Shown here: in pieces, positions 30,961 to 52,914 of the stretch
Position numbering within the stretch: position 1 is the first letter of the stretch
Layout: the number at the start of each line of letters is the position of its first letter
DNA from: a virus
Lineage: Duplodnaviria > Caudoviricetes
Strand: one strand, 5' to 3'
Length of the DNA: 60,672 nucleotides
IMG/VR virus record: IMGVR_UViG_3300025146_000015
Span: 1-60,672 of that record
The notes under the pieces: generated by a model
Told to the model about the DNA's origin: nothing
What the model saw: only the letters and a program-made list of their open reading frames with translations
Databases searched by the model: none
Made by a program: the position numbers and the translations under genes

Positions 30961-31452
30961 TCACCGGGGCGGCGGGGCATCAAGCGGCCCCGTCTGGCAG
31001 ATCCTTCCTGCTTCGGACCGGCATTCGGCCAACATCGCGTGTTCGCGCTGAGCCCTCCGGAGCGACTTCTGGAGTTCGTTGGCCACACCAGCCGAGAACA
31101 GGTCCCGCATCTCGGAGGTACGCGCTTGGATCGAATCGAATTCCGTGCGGTCAATCCTTCCACGGGCCCTGGCAATCCTGGCCTGCTTCGCGATGAGATG
31201 ACACTGTTGAGCCCACAGGTACTCGTCGGCTTCTGGATCGGTCAAGATCCGAATCCCGAGACCCTCGACTTTCGCCACCAGTTCCTCGCAGTTGTCCCAT
31301 ATGGCTCCACGAAGCCGCATGAGTTCGAGCTGGAAGCGTCTCGGGTTCTCCGACGCCTTGAACCCGACGATGTCCTCGGCGTCGCTCTGGTTGATGAACT
31401 GTCCCTTCTGGAGGGTCGAGTAATCGAGAGGATGTAGTTTCGAAACGTCCAT
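30961..31452 (-). CDS. hypothetical protein downstream of the pentamer arrays
   Basis: AGGAG RBS; 163 aa starting MDVSKLHPLDYS. Confidence 0.7.
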   Translation of the reverse strand: MDVSKLHPLDYSTLQKGQFINQSDAEDIVGFKASENPRRFQLELMRLRGAIWDNCEELVAKVEGLGIRILTDPEADEYLWAQQCHLIAKQARIARARGRIDRTEFDSIQARTSEMRDLFSAGVANELQKSLRRAQREHAMLAECRSEAGRICQTGPLDAPPPR

Positions 31453-31485
31453 CGTGTGTCTCCTATTGATGCCCCAAAGGGGCCC

Positions 31486-31789
31486 CTGCCTTGCCATGCC
31501 CAGCCCGGCCATCCACACCTCGACGCGCGTTGGCCCGCCTAGCCTCGGGCCCTCCCGCTGGAATCGAACCAGCGTGCAACCATTGGAGGGCTTGTCCAAA
31601 CCTTGCCTTGCCCTTCCGCGCCGGGACTTGCCATGCACTGCCGAACCGAGAATGTACCGAGCCCAGCCATGGGCACGCCGCCGGGAATCGAACCCGGCGT
31701 ACGACCATCGCGTGCTGTTCATCCAAGCCATGCCCTGCCGAGCCTCGCCTCGCCTGGCCCCGTATGGCCTCGGCTCACCATGCCATGCC
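31486..31789 (-). ncRNA. three GG(C/T)-NN pentamer tracts separated by two tRNA-like T-loop elements (putative guide-RNA array)
   Basis: Tracts at 31725-31789, 31598-31668 and 31486-31544; 43-nt elements at 31673-31715 and 31549-31591. Confidence 0.75.
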
Positions 31790-32353
31790 TCACTCGACCG
31801 TGAACCTTCCGTATCGCGGTCGAAAATCTCCAACGCCAACCCTGGACCCCGCCGCGATCATCGCCTCGCGGGCTTGCTCCGGGTTGAGAATCTCCTCATC
31901 CACCTGCAGCGTCACCTTGCATGACCACGACCGGAAGATTGGTCGAGCTCGCATGATGCGCTGCCTCTGTTGCGCGACCGTTCGGTAGTCACAGAATCGA
32001 CCGTCGGCGTACAACTTCTTGATGTCCTTAGGACCGTCGTACTCGAGAGGAAAGAACGCCTGGTCACAGTAGACGGCGGCGCTCGCTTCCTTCCCGAGCT
32101 TCGCCTTGCGAGCTCCCTGAACGATGGTGGCCAGAATGACGTCGGCCGGAAGGGAAGGGTGGCCCTGTTCGTCGACGTAGAGCCCGCCACGCCATTCTAG
32201 TTCCTTGATCGCCATCAACGTCTCTTCGGTCTTGTTCTTGCCCTTCGCGATCTTCGACTTTTCCCGAGTGATTGGATCCGTCGGGTCAGCGAGACGCGCG
32301 TTGTGCATGAGAAGAGGCGCTACGCCTGTTAGCTTCAGATTGACTGTCTTCAT
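31790..32353 (-). CDS. stand-alone Cas7/RAMP-like RNA-binding protein (Vipr-like)
   Basis: AAGGAG RBS; LKLTGVAPLLMHN, GLYVD..GHPSLP, RARPIF and Gly-rich C-terminal loop GSRVGVGDFRPRYGRF; arrays on both sides. Confidence 0.7.
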   Translation of the reverse strand: MKTVNLKLTGVAPLLMHNARLADPTDPITREKSKIAKGKNKTEETLMAIKELEWRGGLYVDEQGHPSLPADVILATIVQGARKAKLGKEASAAVYCDQAFFPLEYDGPKDIKKLYADGRFCDYRTVAQQRQRIMRARPIFRSWSCKVTLQVDEEILNPEQAREAMIAAGSRVGVGDFRPRYGRFTVE

Positions 32354-32363
32354 GATGTTCTCC

Positions 32364-32575
32364 TTCCCCCGAAGGGGAATCCTTGCCTCGCCCAATCCGG
32401 CCTCGCTCGAACCGCTCTGCCTGCCAGTTGGGGGTTTCCTAACCTCGCCATGCCATGCCATGCCTCGCCGAGCCGTGCCCTGACCAACCCGGCCGCGCCG
32501 CGCCCAGCCTTGAAGCGGGCGCCGTTGGTGCGACTGTCATGGCGTTCACAAATCAGCGACGCCCGCTTCAAGGCT
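32364..32575 (-). ncRNA. long hairpin, two GG(C/T)-NN tracts and a UUCG hairpin upstream of the RAMP-like gene
   Basis: 16-bp inverted repeat 32506-32521/32560-32575; 14 pentamers at 32440-32509; degenerate tract 32383-32425; TTCCCC-TTCG-GGGGAA. Confidence 0.7.
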
Positions 32576-32839
32576 ACGTCATTCACGGAAAGAGCACTTC
32601 CCCGCTTCCAGGCCATCGGCGCTCGGCCTCGGCGCGTAGACGCTCCTCGGAGGCGTCTCCGTAAAATCGAAGCGTCACGAACATTCGGATCAGTTGCCCC
32701 CTCGCCTCGTCGCGCTCCATCACCGCCTTGAGCGCACACGTTGGGCAGAGGATGGGGGACGAGCGCCGCCGAGTCCACGTCGCTAGGCAGAATCACATCG
32801 CATCCGCAGCCGTCGCACTCCACGTACTGGTACGTCGTC

Positions 32840-33568
32840 TCAGTCATAGTTGATCCTCCCTGGCAATTCCAGCCTCCATCGCTTCCTGTCCTCTGGGCAA
32901 ATCAACATGATGGCCCCGTCTGGACGGTCTCGCCAATTCTCTCCATCGTAGTAGCGCAGTCGATACACTGGACCGTACGCCGTGGTGTCGAGGCAGAGAT
33001 GGTTTCCGACGATGGGAGGGCCGTCCTCGGGAGCTGGCCATGCCTGTCTTACCTCGTCGCGCTCCCGTCGGGCAGCGTCACGCTCAGCCGCTACCCTTGG
33101 TAGCTCCACTCGAGCCAACTGCCAGTTTCCATCGAGCAGGTCTCTGATGGTGACGATGGCCTCGGTGCGCTTCGACTCAAGCATAGCGATTCTGTGCTCG
33201 AGTTGCTCCGCGTAGTCGCGCAGCGGGAGGTAGTCACCATCCTCTGCACCTTCGAGCCAGAGTTCTGCTGCTCGGGTCATTGTACCCTGTAGTGCCGTCT
33301 CCAGTCGAGCGTACTGCTCCTTGCGCAGTTCGCACCTTGATTCACACTCGCGACACGGCTTCTCGTCTTCCGGATCAGTTGGATCGCTGGAAGGCTCGGC
33401 TCCGATGGGTTGGTCCTTGGACTCCAGGGCAGCGACGCGCGCGCCGAGTTCATCCAGCACGCCACCGAGCGCTGTGACATTGATCGTTGCAGACCTGATC
33501 AGTTCTCCGCGTACGAACACGTTGGGCTCGATGCATCGTTCGCTCGGTTTCATCGTCCCTCCGGCCAA
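32840..33568 (-). CDS. hypothetical coiled-coil protein
   Basis: 242 aa ORF; the real start may be the ATG at 33553. Confidence 0.55.
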   Translation of the reverse strand: MAGGTMKPSERCIEPNVFVRGELIRSATINVTALGGVLDELGARVAALESKDQPIGAEPSSDPTDPEDEKPCRECESRCELRKEQYARLETALQGTMTRAAELWLEGAEDGDYLPLRDYAEQLEHRIAMLESKRTEAIVTIRDLLDGNWQLARVELPRVAAERDAARRERDEVRQAWPAPEDGPPIVGNHLCLDTTAYGPVYRLRYYDGENWRDRPDGAIMLICPEDRKRWRLELPGRINYD

Positions 33569-51978: not shown

Positions 51979-52914
51979 ATGATCACGATCAAAGAGGAGT
52001 TCATCCGCTGCGACAAGCTTCGTCGAGCGGTCAAGCTTGGTGGTCCAGCCGTGGGGTTGGTCTGGTTGGCCCTGAAGACCTACGTGTCCGAACACCTGAC
52101 CGACGGATTCGTTCCTGTAGACGATGTAGACGGTCTTGTAGACGGTCTTGTAGACGCAAGGTGTAGACGCCGATGCATCGACGCTCTGGTCTCATGTGGT
52201 CGTCTGCTTGCCGACGGTGGGCGCGGATCTGGTCTCGTGGACCGCGTCGAGCATGGCCTACGGCTCCATGATTACCTCGAACATGCAGACGATGCTGAGT
52301 ACGAGCTGAACAGAAGAAGACTCCGATCAGAGCGCCAGAAGAAGTGGCGCAGGGCCAAACAGCAAAGAGAGATTGATGCGTCAAACAAGCTTGGCCAACA
52401 ACCAAATGTAGACGATGTAGACGCGTCTACAGTAGACGATGTAGACGCGTCTCCCTCGTGCGCGCGTACGGGGGCGCCCGCGTCCCCAGCCCAGCCCAGC
52501 CCAGCCCAGCCCAGCCAAACCGAGTTAGATCTAGATCAGGATCCCCCCTATGGTCCCCCAGTGGGGGACGCTCCAGCCAAGGTCCGGCCACGGAAGAGCC
52601 CGAGGTCCAAACTCCCCGAGGGGTGGCAACCGAACGAGGGACACCGATCGCTAGCCACCGAAGTTGGTGTCGAGCTAGCGGCCGAGGTTCCCAAGTTCGT
52701 GGATCATGCGGCAGCCACCGACCGACGGATGGCTGATTGGGATGCTGCGTTTCGGACATGGCTCCGCAACGCGAAGGATTTTCACCGAGGTGGGTTGCTA
52801 CCCTCTGGGGCGAGGGATTCGAGGGCGGACGCGCAGATGCGACGACAGCTCGCGCACATCGAAGACTTGAGACGACAGGAGGCAAGAGAACGTGACCAAG
52901 CTGCAAGCAAGTGA
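51979..52914 (+). CDS. replication initiator protein
   Basis: TDGFVP, LHDYLE and C-terminal LPEGWQPN...FVDH...DWDAAFRTW; internal iterons. Confidence 0.75.
   Translation: MITIKEEFIRCDKLRRAVKLGGPAVGLVWLALKTYVSEHLTDGFVPVDDVDGLVDGLVDARCRRRCIDALVSCGRLLADGGRGSGLVDRVEHGLRLHDYLEHADDAEYELNRRRLRSERQKKWRRAKQQREIDASNKLGQQPNVDDVDASTVDDVDASPSCARTGAPASPAQPSPAQPSQTELDLDQDPPYGPPVGDAPAKVRPRKSPRSKLPEGWQPNEGHRSLATEVGVELAAEVPKFVDHAAATDRRMADWDAAFRTWLRNAKDFHRGGLLPSGARDSRADAQMRRQLAHIEDLRRQEARERDQAASK
52116..52452. repeat. (T)GTAGACG iterons, putative replication origin
   Basis: Five copies at 52116-52169; four direct and one inverted copy at 52407-52447. Confidence 0.75.
52485..52516 (+). repeat. (CCCAG)6 microsatellite encoding a PAQPS linker
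   Basis: Directly visible in the sequence. Confidence 0.85.

What the first reader, a model, noticed from the sequence alone, without database searches (positions are those of the whole stretch)
30961..32575. Stand-alone RAMP/Cas7-like gene embedded in GG(C/T)-NN pentamer arrays: candidate RNA-guided system with a non-contiguous code
Seen: five minus-strand tracts keep a 5-nt period with a near-constant GGC/GGT and a variable dinucleotide. For example, 31789-31725 reads ggcAT ggcAT ggtGA gccGA ggcCA tacGG ggcCA ggcGA ggcGA ggcTC ggcAG ggcAT ggcTT, and 32509-32440 reads ggcTG ggcGC ggcGC ggcCG ggtTG gtcAG ggcAC ggcTC ggcGA ggcAT ggcAT ggcAT ggcGA ggtTA. Tracts are 9-14 units long, differ from one another, mostly end in GGA and are bounded by hairpins. 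They sit on both sides of a 187 aa ORF with an N-terminal beta-strand/PLLMHN motif and a Gly-rich C-terminal loop. No cas1/cas2, nuclease or CRISPR repeat is present in this locus. Knowledge: RAMP proteins carry a C-terminal G-rich loop and polymerise along RNA with a fixed step. Inference: one protomer binds each GGY and displays the NN bases, so the dinucleotide string specifies a gapped target. This matches my recollection of recently reported phage VIPR systems, which I cannot verify here.
Basis: partly seen in the sequence, partly recalled or inferred. Interest (0 to 1): 0.95.

Follow-up and report, generated by a model that had tools for sequence, protein, structure and literature searches.

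The report
Phage VIPR system with tRNA-like tails
This uncultured soil-type phage carries a complete VIPR system, a CRISPR-related way of silencing rival DNA first described in 2026, so it is a new example of a known kind; its guide RNAs end in miniature tRNA-like structures, not the published pseudoknot.

Summary
The 187-aa ORF (31790-32353, minus) matches the solved SUSP1 Vipr protein over its full length (E 5.9e-29) and keeps the GGY-binding residues. Four GGY-NN arrays lie on the same strand (51 units, 42 canonical). Positions 1-3 carry 1.3-1.6 bits and positions 4-5 carry 0.02-0.14 bits. Shuffles do not reproduce this. The downstream 163-aa gene belongs to the family of the SUSP1-type Vap1 accessory protein. 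No cas gene or CRISPR array is nearby. The window is one whole IMG/VR myovirus contig.

This is a type II-like VIPR system, as in bioRxiv 10.64898/2026.04.26.720920: a new member of a known kind.

One feature goes beyond the papers as far as I could read them. Two guides end in a covarying acceptor-stem/T-arm module with the tRNA T-loop consensus. The same module occurs in 19 of 93 related loci. None of the four VIPR papers mentions tRNA in its text; supplements were closed. Earlier agents of this scan noted the same tails on other DNA.

No natural target, host or RNA evidence was found.

The parts
32505..32580 (-). Long stem-loop immediately 5' of array A. Its 3' arm overlaps the first pentamer. 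It may be a processing or attenuation element (inference).
   Evidence: Inverted repeat 32506-32527 / 32554-32575, 22 nt, 91% complementary. RNA fold -45.2 kcal/mol, z -7.59, 0 of 200 shuffles as stable.
32440..32509 (-). vrRNA array A: 14 GGYNN units (13 canonical), followed by GGA.
32364..32439 (-). Tail region of array A. It holds a degenerate copy of the tRNA-like tail, a 2-unit array remnant and a small GC hairpin before the vipr ribosome-binding site.
   Evidence: It is the 65%-identical third copy of repeat family D3, shared with tails B and C. The tail model scores only 9.7 bits (E 4.5), which is not significant. The fold is no better than shuffles (z 0.21).
31790..32353 (-). vipr gene: 187-aa RAMP protein that binds the GGY of each repeat (by homology).
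   Evidence: PDB 36pp_D 'SUSP1 Vipr protein', E 5.9e-29, residues 1-187 against 1-188. phrog_4652, E 1.2e-50. 96 homologues. H17, R137 and D176-F177-R178 align with SUSP1 H17, R138 and D177-W178-R179.
31725..31789 (-). vrRNA array B: 13 units (11 canonical). It starts directly after the vipr stop codon and is followed by GGA.
31673..31715 (-). tRNA-like tail of vrRNA B: 6-bp acceptor-like stem, GATGGTCGTA linker, 7-bp T-arm with a TTCGATT loop, then CCCA.
   Evidence: Structure finder. Tail model 46.6 bits. Covariation. Sub-threshold Rfam match to the tRNA-like mascRNA family, 20.4 bits, E 0.31.
31598..31668 (-). vrRNA array C: 3 units, one 6-nt irregular unit, then 10 units (7 canonical), followed by GGA.
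31549..31591 (-). tRNA-like tail of vrRNA C: 7-bp acceptor-like stem, linker AATGGTTGCA, 6-bp T-arm with a TTCGATT loop.
   Evidence: Tail model 37.1 bits. The minimum-free-energy fold shows both helices.
31471..31544 (-). vrRNA array D: 6 units, GGAT, 5 units, GGG, then the hairpin GCCCC-TTT-GGGGC. It has no tRNA-like tail and is possibly decayed.
   Evidence: No tail-model hit.
30961..31452 (-). vap gene: 163-aa Vap1-family accessory protein with an N-terminal helix-helix-beta-hairpin domain and a long helical hairpin.
   Evidence: tblastn finds homologues in 12 vipr loci at E<1e-4; they lie downstream of vipr in the loci I checked. An iterated HMM finds 66 of 1360 ORFs. The Felixounavirus Vap1-position gene (L004 2591-3031) scored E 1.4e-8 before it was included in the profile. 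AlphaFold2 model pLDDT 90.8.

Best explanation
The locus 30961-32580 (minus strand) is a type II-like VIPR (Viral Interference Programmable Repeat) system carried by an uncultured myovirus. Its order is: leader hairpin, vrRNA A, vipr, vrRNAs B, C and D, then a vap1-family gene.

Shown here:
- The protein is a full-length homologue of the structurally solved SUSP1 Vipr and keeps the GGY-contacting residues.
- The arrays have fixed GGY and free NN.
- The arrays, the tails and both genes lie on one strand.
- Homologues elsewhere carry the same arrays and the same accessory gene.

Inferred from the published SUSP1 and P. fulva work:
- The arrays are transcribed and cut into roughly 120-nt vrRNAs.
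- One Vipr protomer binds each repeat, sequesters GGY and presents NN.
- The NN string pairs with double-stranded DNA reading two bases and skipping one (1-nt skip rule), and transcription of the bound DNA is silenced.
- The bound DNA is most likely a competing phage, prophage or satellite in the same host.
- The Vap1-like protein assists.

Inferred from structure conservation only: in this lineage the vrRNA 3' tail is not the SUSP1 pseudoknot. It is a miniature tRNA-like module (acceptor-like stem stacked on a T-arm, with a GG-containing linker that could mimic the D-loop). It sits between consecutive arrays and probably marks the vrRNA 3' boundary and caps the filament.
For: Protein:
- phmmer against PDB sequences gives 36pp_D 'SUSP1 Vipr protein', E 5.9e-29, over residues 1-187 of 187. 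The next hit is at E 0.73.
- H17, R137 and D176/F177/R178 align with H17, R138 and D177/W178/R179, which the cryo-EM paper names as the G1/G2/Y3 contacts. R137, R178 and G173 are invariant, and H17 is at least 90% conserved, among 34 homologues.
- phrog_4652, E 1.2e-50.

Arrays: periodicity far above shuffles; 42 of 51 units are canonical and the information sits only at positions 1-3.

Context:
- 73 of 84 homologue loci have at least one array on the vipr strand. Only 2 have any on the other strand.
- Vap: one family of 66 ORFs in 66 of 94 loci, including the gene at the Vap1 position of a SUSP1-type Felixounavirus (E 1.4e-8 before inclusion; no weak off-family hits remained in the last two rounds).
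- No cas genes, CRISPR repeats or PADLOC hits.
- The record is viral, with tail sheath, tape-measure and baseplate hub genes.

No self-target: the best 1-nt-skip matches in the phage's own contig are 18/28, 16/26 and 14/20. All are under 80%, as the paper reports for its systems.

Tails:
- The covariance model finds 56 hits in 19 of 93 loci plus the window, all 56 on the vipr strand.
- 84.1% of cells are paired against 54.9% in shuffles (0 of 500 reach it). The covariation score is 0.682 against 0.170 (0 of 500).
- 5 of 5 acceptor pairs and 6 of 7 T-arm pairs show compensatory changes.
- 47 of 56 tails follow an array and 44 of 56 precede another.
Against: - Nothing here shows expression, processing, Vipr binding or silencing. 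No RNA run holds the sequence.
- No natural target was found, so the biological role at this locus is unproven.
- Arrays C and D carry register shifts and degenerate units, and tail A is degenerate. Part of the locus may be decaying.
- SUSP1 K33, a backbone contact whose mutation abolished silencing, aligns with S33 here, with K32 and K34 beside it.
- The type assignment rests on the Vap1 link and on 35.6% identity to Felixounavirus Vipr. It does not rest on the authors' phylogeny, which is in supplements I could not open.
- The Vap N-terminal domain has no significant fold match: Foldseek best E 0.76, and the VIA rows cover only the helical hairpin.
Confidence: 0.9

Rival explanations
1. It is a VIPR locus, but the tRNA-like tails are host-enzyme processing signals, not a retained cap. 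RNase P would cut at the 5' side of the acceptor-like stem, and RNase Z or another tRNA 3' enzyme at the 3' side. This would excise the module and release tail-less guides, like the hammerhead-interspersed arrays of the paper or engineered tRNA-guide arrays.
For: - The tails sit between consecutive arrays (44 of 56 are followed by another array, most often 5-6 nt after the module).
- The stacked helix is 11-13 bp in 38 of 41 distinct tails. By my knowledge, not a call, the tRNA acceptor/T stack is 12 bp.
- 40 of 41 have GG in the linker.
- The invariant loop letters are G, T, T, C, A and C, which by my knowledge correspond to tRNA G53, T54, psi55, C56, A58 and C61.
- The best, though sub-threshold, Rfam match is mascRNA, a tRNA-like RNA that by recall is made by RNase P and RNase Z.
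- The paper reports ribozyme-punctuated arrays, so punctuation by a cleavage element has precedent.
Against: - In SUSP1 the tail stays on the mature vrRNA and caps the filament.
- What follows the module is mostly RCGC, not CCA; only tail B has CCA.
- ARAGORN and the Rfam tRNA and tmRNA models do not call these elements.
- No cleavage data exist.
Confidence: 0.3
2. It is a decaying, non-functional VIPR remnant. The genes are intact by chance or were inactivated recently, and the guides are no longer used.
For: - Arrays C and D have one-base register shifts and 3 of 13 and 3 of 11 non-canonical units.
- Tail A is degenerate, and array D has no tail.
- No target was found in any collection.
Against: - Both ORFs are full length, with good ribosome-binding sites and conserved functional residues.
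- Arrays A and B are 13/14 and 11/13 canonical.
- My target search needed exact seeds and could not see most 80% matches.
Confidence: 0.08
3. The T-arm-like segments are fragments of real tRNA genes, for example attP cores that duplicate a tRNA 3' end, and are unrelated to the arrays.
For: By recall, phage attachment sites often copy the T-arm and acceptor 3' strand of a tRNA gene. The loop matches the tRNA consensus.
Against: - Each module has its own complementary 5' strand directly upstream, and this strand covaries (5 of 5 pairs with compensatory changes).
- The modules recur two or more times per locus, always on the vipr strand (56 of 56), and 47 of 56 directly follow an array.
- They differ in sequence between copies.
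- No integrase turned up among the genes I scanned around them, though I scanned only part of the window.
Confidence: 0.02

Closest known systems
Type II VIPR systems of Escherichia phage SUSP1 and the Pseudomonas fulva prophage (bioRxiv 10.64898/2026.04.26.720920; structures in 10.64898/2026.04.26.720927; infection biology in 10.64898/2026.10.15.759431)
   Same: - A Vipr protein of about 190 aa, alignable end to end (E 5.9e-29 to the solved chain), with the GGY-contact residues kept.
- GGYNN arrays of 11-14 units, within the published 9-16.
- One vrRNA upstream and three downstream of vipr.
- A Vap1-family accessory gene.
- Viral location, no cas genes and no self-target.
   Different: - Only 35.6% identity to Felixounavirus Vipr.
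- The downstream arrays lie between vipr and vap, not after vap.
- The 3' tail is a nested acceptor/T-arm module, not the H-type pseudoknot. The tail model finds nothing in the Felixounavirus locus L004.
- W178 is F here, and K33 is S flanked by two lysines.
- Targets are unknown.
VIPR loci of actinobacteriophages Trine, LittleE and MakoManhole, and of 16 metagenomic or genomic loci (annotated as hypothetical proteins in GenBank)
   Same: The same tRNA-like tail class, the same Vap family, and arrays on the vipr strand.
   Different: - Vipr is only 36-40% identical.
- On the quick Vipr tree, 16 tail-bearing loci sit in one well-supported clade of 25, while the window sits elsewhere with L006, L007, L016 and L086. 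So the tail class is clustered but patchy: at least 6 changes are forced by supported branches.
Hammerhead-ribozyme-interspersed vrRNA arrays (types I and V; fig. S19 legend of 10.64898/2026.04.26.720920)
   Same: A structured RNA element sits between adjacent vrRNAs in one array.
   Different: Here the element is a tRNA-like module that cannot cleave itself. Any cutting would need host enzymes.
Class 1 CRISPR-Cas backbone proteins (Cas7 / RAMP)
   Same: According to the papers: the RRM core, G-loop and thumb, polymerisation along a guide with a fixed step, and a flipped base at each step.
   Different: No CRISPR array, no cas1/cas2 or other cas genes. The step is 5 nt, with three guide bases hidden per step. 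The guides are fixed in the genome, not acquired.
tRNA-like small RNAs lacking an anticodon arm (mascRNA; the tRNA-like domain of tmRNA) - recalled, apart from the Rfam row
   Same: An acceptor stem stacked on a T-arm with the T-loop consensus. The best Rfam row for tail B is mascRNA-menRNA.
   Different: That match is below threshold (20.4 bits against a gathering score of 42.5, E 0.31). There is no CCA in most copies. The elements are not called by ARAGORN.

Membership tests
VIPR system | A Vipr protein: a minimal RAMP (RRM core, G-loop, thumb) homologous to the characterised Vipr proteins | tested here: met
   Full-length match to PDB 36pp_D 'SUSP1 Vipr protein', E 5.9e-29. The GGY-contact residues are conserved. 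The fold itself was not predicted here; it is inferred from sequence homology to the solved chain.
VIPR system | vrRNA genes: tandem GGY/NN (YNNGG) pentamers, 9-16 per vrRNA, beside vipr, with hypervariable NN | tested here: met
   Four arrays of 11-14 units on the vipr strand. 42 of 51 units are canonical. NN carries 0.02-0.14 bits and uses 15 of 16 dinucleotides. Shuffles reach at most 6 of 9. Hypervariability between close relatives could not be tested: no locus above 52% Vipr identity could be fetched.
VIPR system | A structurally conserved 3' tail after the repeat tract | tested here: met
   Tails B and C fit a covarying two-helix model shared with 19 other loci. The structure differs from the published SUSP1 pseudoknot. 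Tail A is degenerate and array D has only a small hairpin.
VIPR system | A minimal locus with a vipr-accessory (vap) gene and no CRISPR array or cas genes | tested here: met
   A Vap1-family gene lies at 30961-31452. There are no PADLOC or Pfam cas hits in 10 neighbouring ORFs and no CRISPR-like repeat family.
VIPR system | Predominantly viral or proviral location | tested here: met
   The window is an entire IMG/VR virus record (CheckV 84%) with tail sheath, tape-measure and baseplate hub genes.
VIPR system | Guides match natural targets under the 1-nt skip rule (at least 80% of NN) and not the element's own genome | tested here: inconclusive
   There is no self-target (at most 64%, 62% and 70%). 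No convincing foreign target was found. The best is 25/28 in a metagenome contig, upstream of a gene that looked to me like proB, with about 0.05-0.14 expected by chance after 14 seeds. All others are at most 81% and at chance level. The collection scans needed exact seeds.
VIPR system | vrRNAs are expressed, co-purify with Vipr and direct repression | not testable with these tools
   No RNA run holds the stretch. This needs bench work.
VIPR type II | Placement in the type II clade of the authors' Vipr phylogeny, with vap1 | tested here: inconclusive
   A vap1-family gene is present, and on my quick tree the Felixounavirus Vipr lies within the same large group. The authors' type table and tree are in supplements that were closed.
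CRISPR-Cas (class 1) | A CRISPR repeat-spacer array plus cas genes (adaptation module, several RAMPs) | tested here: not met
   None was found in the locus. This agrees with the definition of VIPR as distinct from CRISPR.
tRNA / tmRNA gene | A cloverleaf, or tmRNA architecture, recognised by ARAGORN or Rfam | tested here: not met
   ARAGORN finds 0 genes in the window. Rfam finds nothing at gathering thresholds, and no tRNA or tmRNA row at E up to 10 in 31400-32650. Only the acceptor/T-arm half is mimicked.

The most novel reading that the evidence does not exclude
In a widespread subset of VIPR systems, including this one, the guide RNA's 3' handle is a miniature tRNA: an acceptor/T-arm stack of about 12 bp, the T-loop consensus, and a GG linker that could mimic the D-loop elbow. 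This module would borrow the host's tRNA machinery (RNase P, RNase Z, perhaps T-loop modification enzymes) to cut polycistronic vrRNA arrays into units and stabilise them. That would be a natural counterpart of engineered tRNA-guide arrays, and a third punctuation mode besides the published pseudoknot tails and hammerhead ribozymes. The class is patchy on the Vipr tree, which suggests that tails are exchanged or replaced between lineages.
Probability: 0.3. Interest if true: 0.6.

Novelty: new member of a known kind. Interest (0 to 1): 0.38.

Why it matters
VIPR is a months-old class of RNA-guided DNA-binding system, proposed to predate CRISPR.

This locus extends the class to a divergent myovirus lineage. 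Its Vipr is at most 40% identical to any in the phage collection searched, and at most 52% identical to any locus I could fetch.

It also gives another instance of a tail class that the four papers' texts do not describe. Here that tail is supported by covariation across 46 distinct sequences. If the tRNA-like tail does engage host tRNA enzymes, it would explain how long vrRNA arrays are matured without a dedicated nuclease, and it would offer a compact natural design for multiplexed guide expression.

As a single locus it adds no new principle. The class, its code and its biology are already published.

Tried and rejected
Target search (1-nt skip rule, both strands):
- Own contig: best 18/28 (A), 16/26 (B) and 14/20 (last 10 units of C). 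The 3-nt-skip control recovers the guides themselves.
- 93 fetched loci: best 19/28, 18/26 and 15/20.
- Viral contigs, exact patterns: guide B with its two degenerate units wildcarded, 0 hits. Guide A 3' seed with 18 specified bases, 0 hits. Guide C last 10 units, 0 hits.
- Guide B 3' seed (16 bases): 23 hits, best extension 21/26, in contigs of 39-42% GC. About 1.8 such hits are expected by chance.
- Guide A 5' seed: 9 hits, best 21/28. Guide B 5' seed: 46 hits, best 21/26.
- Metagenome contigs, guide A 3' seed: 14 hits. The best is L125 with 25/28, in an intergenic stretch beside a gene that looked to me like proB, on a 50% GC contig. I treat it as probable chance.
- Whole records of the five nearest Vipr relatives, up to 3 mismatches: 0 of 5 for A and for B.
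- The collection scans take exact patterns only, so most 80% matches are invisible to them.

Host:
- No tRNA genes.
- megablast of 8 kb against the phage collection: no match.
- Tail sheath: best 54.6% to a Shewanella phage.
- Genome contigs: Vipr relatives at 45% or less, in MAGs of several phyla.
- Tail sheath not found in 5 genomes holding Vipr relatives, nor in 301 + 301 sampled genomes of two classes at E<=1e-40. The host remains unknown.

Expression: no RNA holder is listed. Six DNA metagenome runs hold small shares (0.05-0.13). Laying four of them gave only short pieces of related strains, none spanning the locus, so I make no statement on habitat or on NN variation.

Vap fold:
- The single-sequence model was poor (pLDDT 64.4).
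- The alignment-based model was good (pLDDT 90.8), but Foldseek against PDB gave nothing at E<=0.001. The best row is 3ihu_A at E 0.76, and several weak rows are winged-helix regulators.
- VIA-align wide gave only generic helical-hairpin rows (top Z 8.2, residues 70-162).
- hhalign of the Vap alignment against single Vap1-position proteins gave probabilities of 1.6-3.5%. The link was made by iterated HMM instead.
- No Pfam family at E<=0.001 for Vipr, Vap or the Vap relatives; weakest-tier hits only, E 0.021-0.077, one member each.

Other:
- Rfam found nothing at gathering thresholds.
- TRF does not call the arrays.
- The sigma-70 promoter and terminator scan gave 1 and 0 sites, not above shuffles.
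- The search for related loci with the single protein found no close relative in viral contigs.
- Rejected: coding Gly-rich repeat, because a 5-nt period cannot hold a reading frame.
- Rejected: CRISPR array.
Full report
What is there. On the minus strand between 32580 and 30961 lie, in order:
- a very stable stem-loop (arms 32506-32527 / 32554-32575; -45.2 kcal/mol, z -7.6);
- a 14-unit GGY-NN array A (32509-32440);
- a poorly structured tail region;
- a 187-aa ORF (32353-31790);
- array B (13 units, starting at the base after the stop codon);
- a 43-nt structured tail (31715-31673);
- array C (3 + 10 units with one irregular 6-nt unit);
- a second 43-nt tail (31591-31549);
- array D (6 + 5 units around a 4-nt unit), ending in a small GC hairpin;
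- a 163-aa ORF (31452-30961).

The periodicity is not chance. Nine in-phase positions carry GGY up to 8 times here, against at most 4-6 in 50 dinucleotide shuffles and at most 4 on the plus strand. Of 51 units, 42 are canonical. Positions 1-3 hold 1.62, 1.31 and 1.29 bits, and positions 4-5 hold 0.14 and 0.02 bits.

What it is. The library holds three preprints from one laboratory that define VIPR systems, plus a fourth that recovers them with a language model. For 10.64898/2026.04.26.720920 I read the abstract, the whole Results section and methods sections 18, 20, 25, 26 and 27. For 10.64898/2026.04.26.720927 I read the abstract and Results sections 5 and 6. For 10.64898/2026.10.15.759431 and 10.64898/2026.10.21.760802 I read term-search passages only.

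According to these papers, a VIPR system has:
- a Vipr protein, a minimal RAMP;
- vrRNAs of 9-16 YNNGG repeats followed by a conserved 3' tail;
- usually one accessory gene (vap1-6);
- no CRISPR array;
- a mostly viral location.

One Vipr protomer binds each repeat, hides GGY and presents NN. The NN string pairs with DNA by reading two bases and skipping one.

The ORF here matches the deposited 'SUSP1 Vipr protein' chain (PDB 36pp_D) from first to last residue, with E 5.9e-29. The next PDB hit has E 0.73. In that alignment H17, R137, D176, F177 and R178 stand opposite SUSP1 H17, R138, D177, W178 and R179. The structure paper names those residues as the contacts to G1, G2 and Y3. Most are invariant or nearly so among 34 homologues. 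SUSP1 K33 aligns with S33, flanked by K32 and K34.

The protein also hits phrog_4652 (E 1.2e-50). It has 96 homologues in the large protein collection, the best at 83% identity. It has homologues in 131 phage records, the best being Gordonia phage Trine at 39.7%, with Felixounaviruses at 35.6%.

Do homologues carry the arrays? I examined 84 loci: 80 IMG/VR contigs found with an alignment of homologues and 4 phage records. Of these, 73 have at least one array (6 of 8 units canonical) on the vipr strand, 258 arrays in all. Only 2 loci have any array on the other strand.

The second gene. The 163-aa protein has no Pfam, PHROG or PADLOC hit. tblastn finds relatives in 12 vipr loci at E<1e-4; they lie downstream of vipr in the loci I checked. 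An HMM iterated over all 1360 ORFs of the loci converges on 66 ORFs, one per locus. They include the gene at the Vap1 position of the SUSP1-type Felixounavirus wV8, LittleE gp33, Trine gp40 and MakoManhole gp77 (annotated 'DNA binding protein'). The wV8 protein scored E 1.4e-8 with the profile built before it was included, and no off-family weak hits remained in the last two rounds. I equate wV8 gp94 with Vap1 from gene order and from the 1,114-bp vipr-vap1 segment mentioned in the third preprint. This is an inference.

An AlphaFold2 model built with 13 relatives is confident (pLDDT 90.8). It shows two short helices and a beta-hairpin followed by a long antiparallel helical hairpin. Structure searches gave nothing significant. 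A DNA-binding role is therefore taken from the paper's statement about type II vap genes, not shown here.

Context. The window is one whole IMG/VR virus record (60,672 bp, CheckV 84%). It carries tail sheath, tape measure and baseplate hub genes. Neighbours are a PD-(D/E)XK/DUF2800 exonuclease and a PAPS-reductase/DUF3440 plus ParB-N pair. There are no cas genes and no CRISPR-like repeats.

The tails. Tails B and C share one architecture: a 6-7 bp stem, a 10-nt linker containing ATGGT, a 6-7 bp hairpin whose 7-nt loop reads TTCGATT, and then directly the 3' strand of the first stem. A structure finder locates exactly two such elements on the minus strand of the window and none on the plus strand. 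It finds 45 in the related loci.

A covariance model built from 33 of them finds 56 hits at E<=1e-3 in 19 of 93 loci plus the window. All 56 lie on the vipr strand. The hit loci include loci absent from the seed set, such as a Streptomyces genome and an Alphaproteobacteria MAG.

On the 46 distinct sequences:
- 84.1% of cells pair, against 54.9% in shuffles (0 of 500);
- the covariation score is 0.682 against 0.170 (0 of 500), and slid controls give at most 0.26;
- 5 of 5 outer pairs and 6 of 7 inner pairs show compensatory changes.

That alignment was fitted to the model, which favours the structure. RNAalifold on the plain MAFFT alignment independently gave the inner helix, with 5 of 6 pairs compensated.

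The invariant letters are G, T, T, C, A and C around the loop. By my knowledge these are the conserved G53, T54, psi55, C56, A58 and C61 of the tRNA T-arm. The stacked helices total 11-13 bp in 38 of 41 distinct tails, and 40 of 41 have GG in the linker. Of the 56 tails, 47 follow an array and 44 are followed by another, usually 5-6 nt later.

They are not tRNA genes. ARAGORN and Rfam call nothing. The best sub-threshold Rfam row is the tRNA-like mascRNA family (E 0.31).

The Felixounavirus tails (the published pseudoknot class) are not hit by the model. A word search finds 'tRNA' 0 times in the three VIPR preprints and 'tRNA-like' 0 times in the fourth. A further search for tRNA-like + guide RNA + phage + RAMP found no paper. 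Supplements, which may show other tail classes, were closed.

On a quick Vipr tree, 16 tail-bearing loci fall in one supported clade of 25 that holds the actinophages. The window, L086, L026 and L081 carry the tail elsewhere on the tree. Supported branches force at least 6 changes, and the label is more clustered than in all 500 shuffles. The careful tree search did not finish.

Tail A is a 65% copy of the same element with broken stems.

How it most likely works. By homology, the arrays are transcribed with the two genes from the minus strand and matured into vrRNAs of roughly 120 nt. Vipr coats each repeat tract, and the complex binds DNA that matches the NN code with one skipped base per step and blocks its transcription. 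Vap1 assists; in SUSP1 both genes were needed to overcome a satellite. The tail probably serves as the 3' cap and boundary.

Whether host tRNA enzymes cut at the tail is open. I put that at about 0.3.

What it targets is unknown. There is no self-match at 80% or more, in line with the paper. Seeded searches of IMG/VR, JGI metagenomes and the nearest relatives' records gave only chance-level matches. The one 25/28 match lies beside what looked to me like a proB gene on a 50% GC contig. No host could be assigned and no RNA data exist.

Verdict. The locus passes every VIPR membership feature that can be tested in silico. It is a new, divergent member of a class published in 2026, most like type II.

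The tRNA-like tail is the one feature that goes beyond the papers' texts. Earlier agents of this scan reported the same tail class in other phages (e1-5360981, e1-5841718, e1-5799093). I had reached it independently, and here I tested it with a covariance model and pair counts.

Noticed in passing
window 52472-52536 (minus), with 52125-52156 and 52406-52447: A perfect (GGCTG)x6 pentamer run preceded by GGTTT. It scores 7 of 9 in the GGY phase test but has a single NN (TG) and no tRNA-like tail. It sits next to iteron-like 9-12 nt tandem repeats. It could be a simple repeat or a solo or decoy vrRNA-like element.
   Followed up: partly
window 32583-32847 (minus): A small ORF upstream of the locus starts with a CxxC motif, and a second CxxC (CPTC) plus the rest of the protein continue in another frame after a run of five C. 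This looks like a zinc-ribbon gene split by a frameshift or a homopolymer assembly error.
   Followed up: no
L016 2735-2929 and 4028-4558: One of the nearest Vipr relatives has uninterrupted arrays of 39 to 87 pentamers with no tails. They are punctuated every 9-13 units by GGCAC TCCNN, possibly the 'staggered array' architecture of the paper's fig. S18 legend.
   Followed up: no
L125 5701-5741: Guide A matches 25 of 28 NN positions under the 1-nt skip rule in an intergenic stretch upstream of a gene that looked to me like proB, on a 50% GC metagenome contig. It is probably chance: about 0.05-0.14 expected after 14 seed hits.
   Followed up: partly
These are ordinary phage modules flanking the VIPR locus.
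   Followed up: partly
If real, one phage would carry two different non-CRISPR guide-RNA systems. I did not examine it.
   Followed up: no
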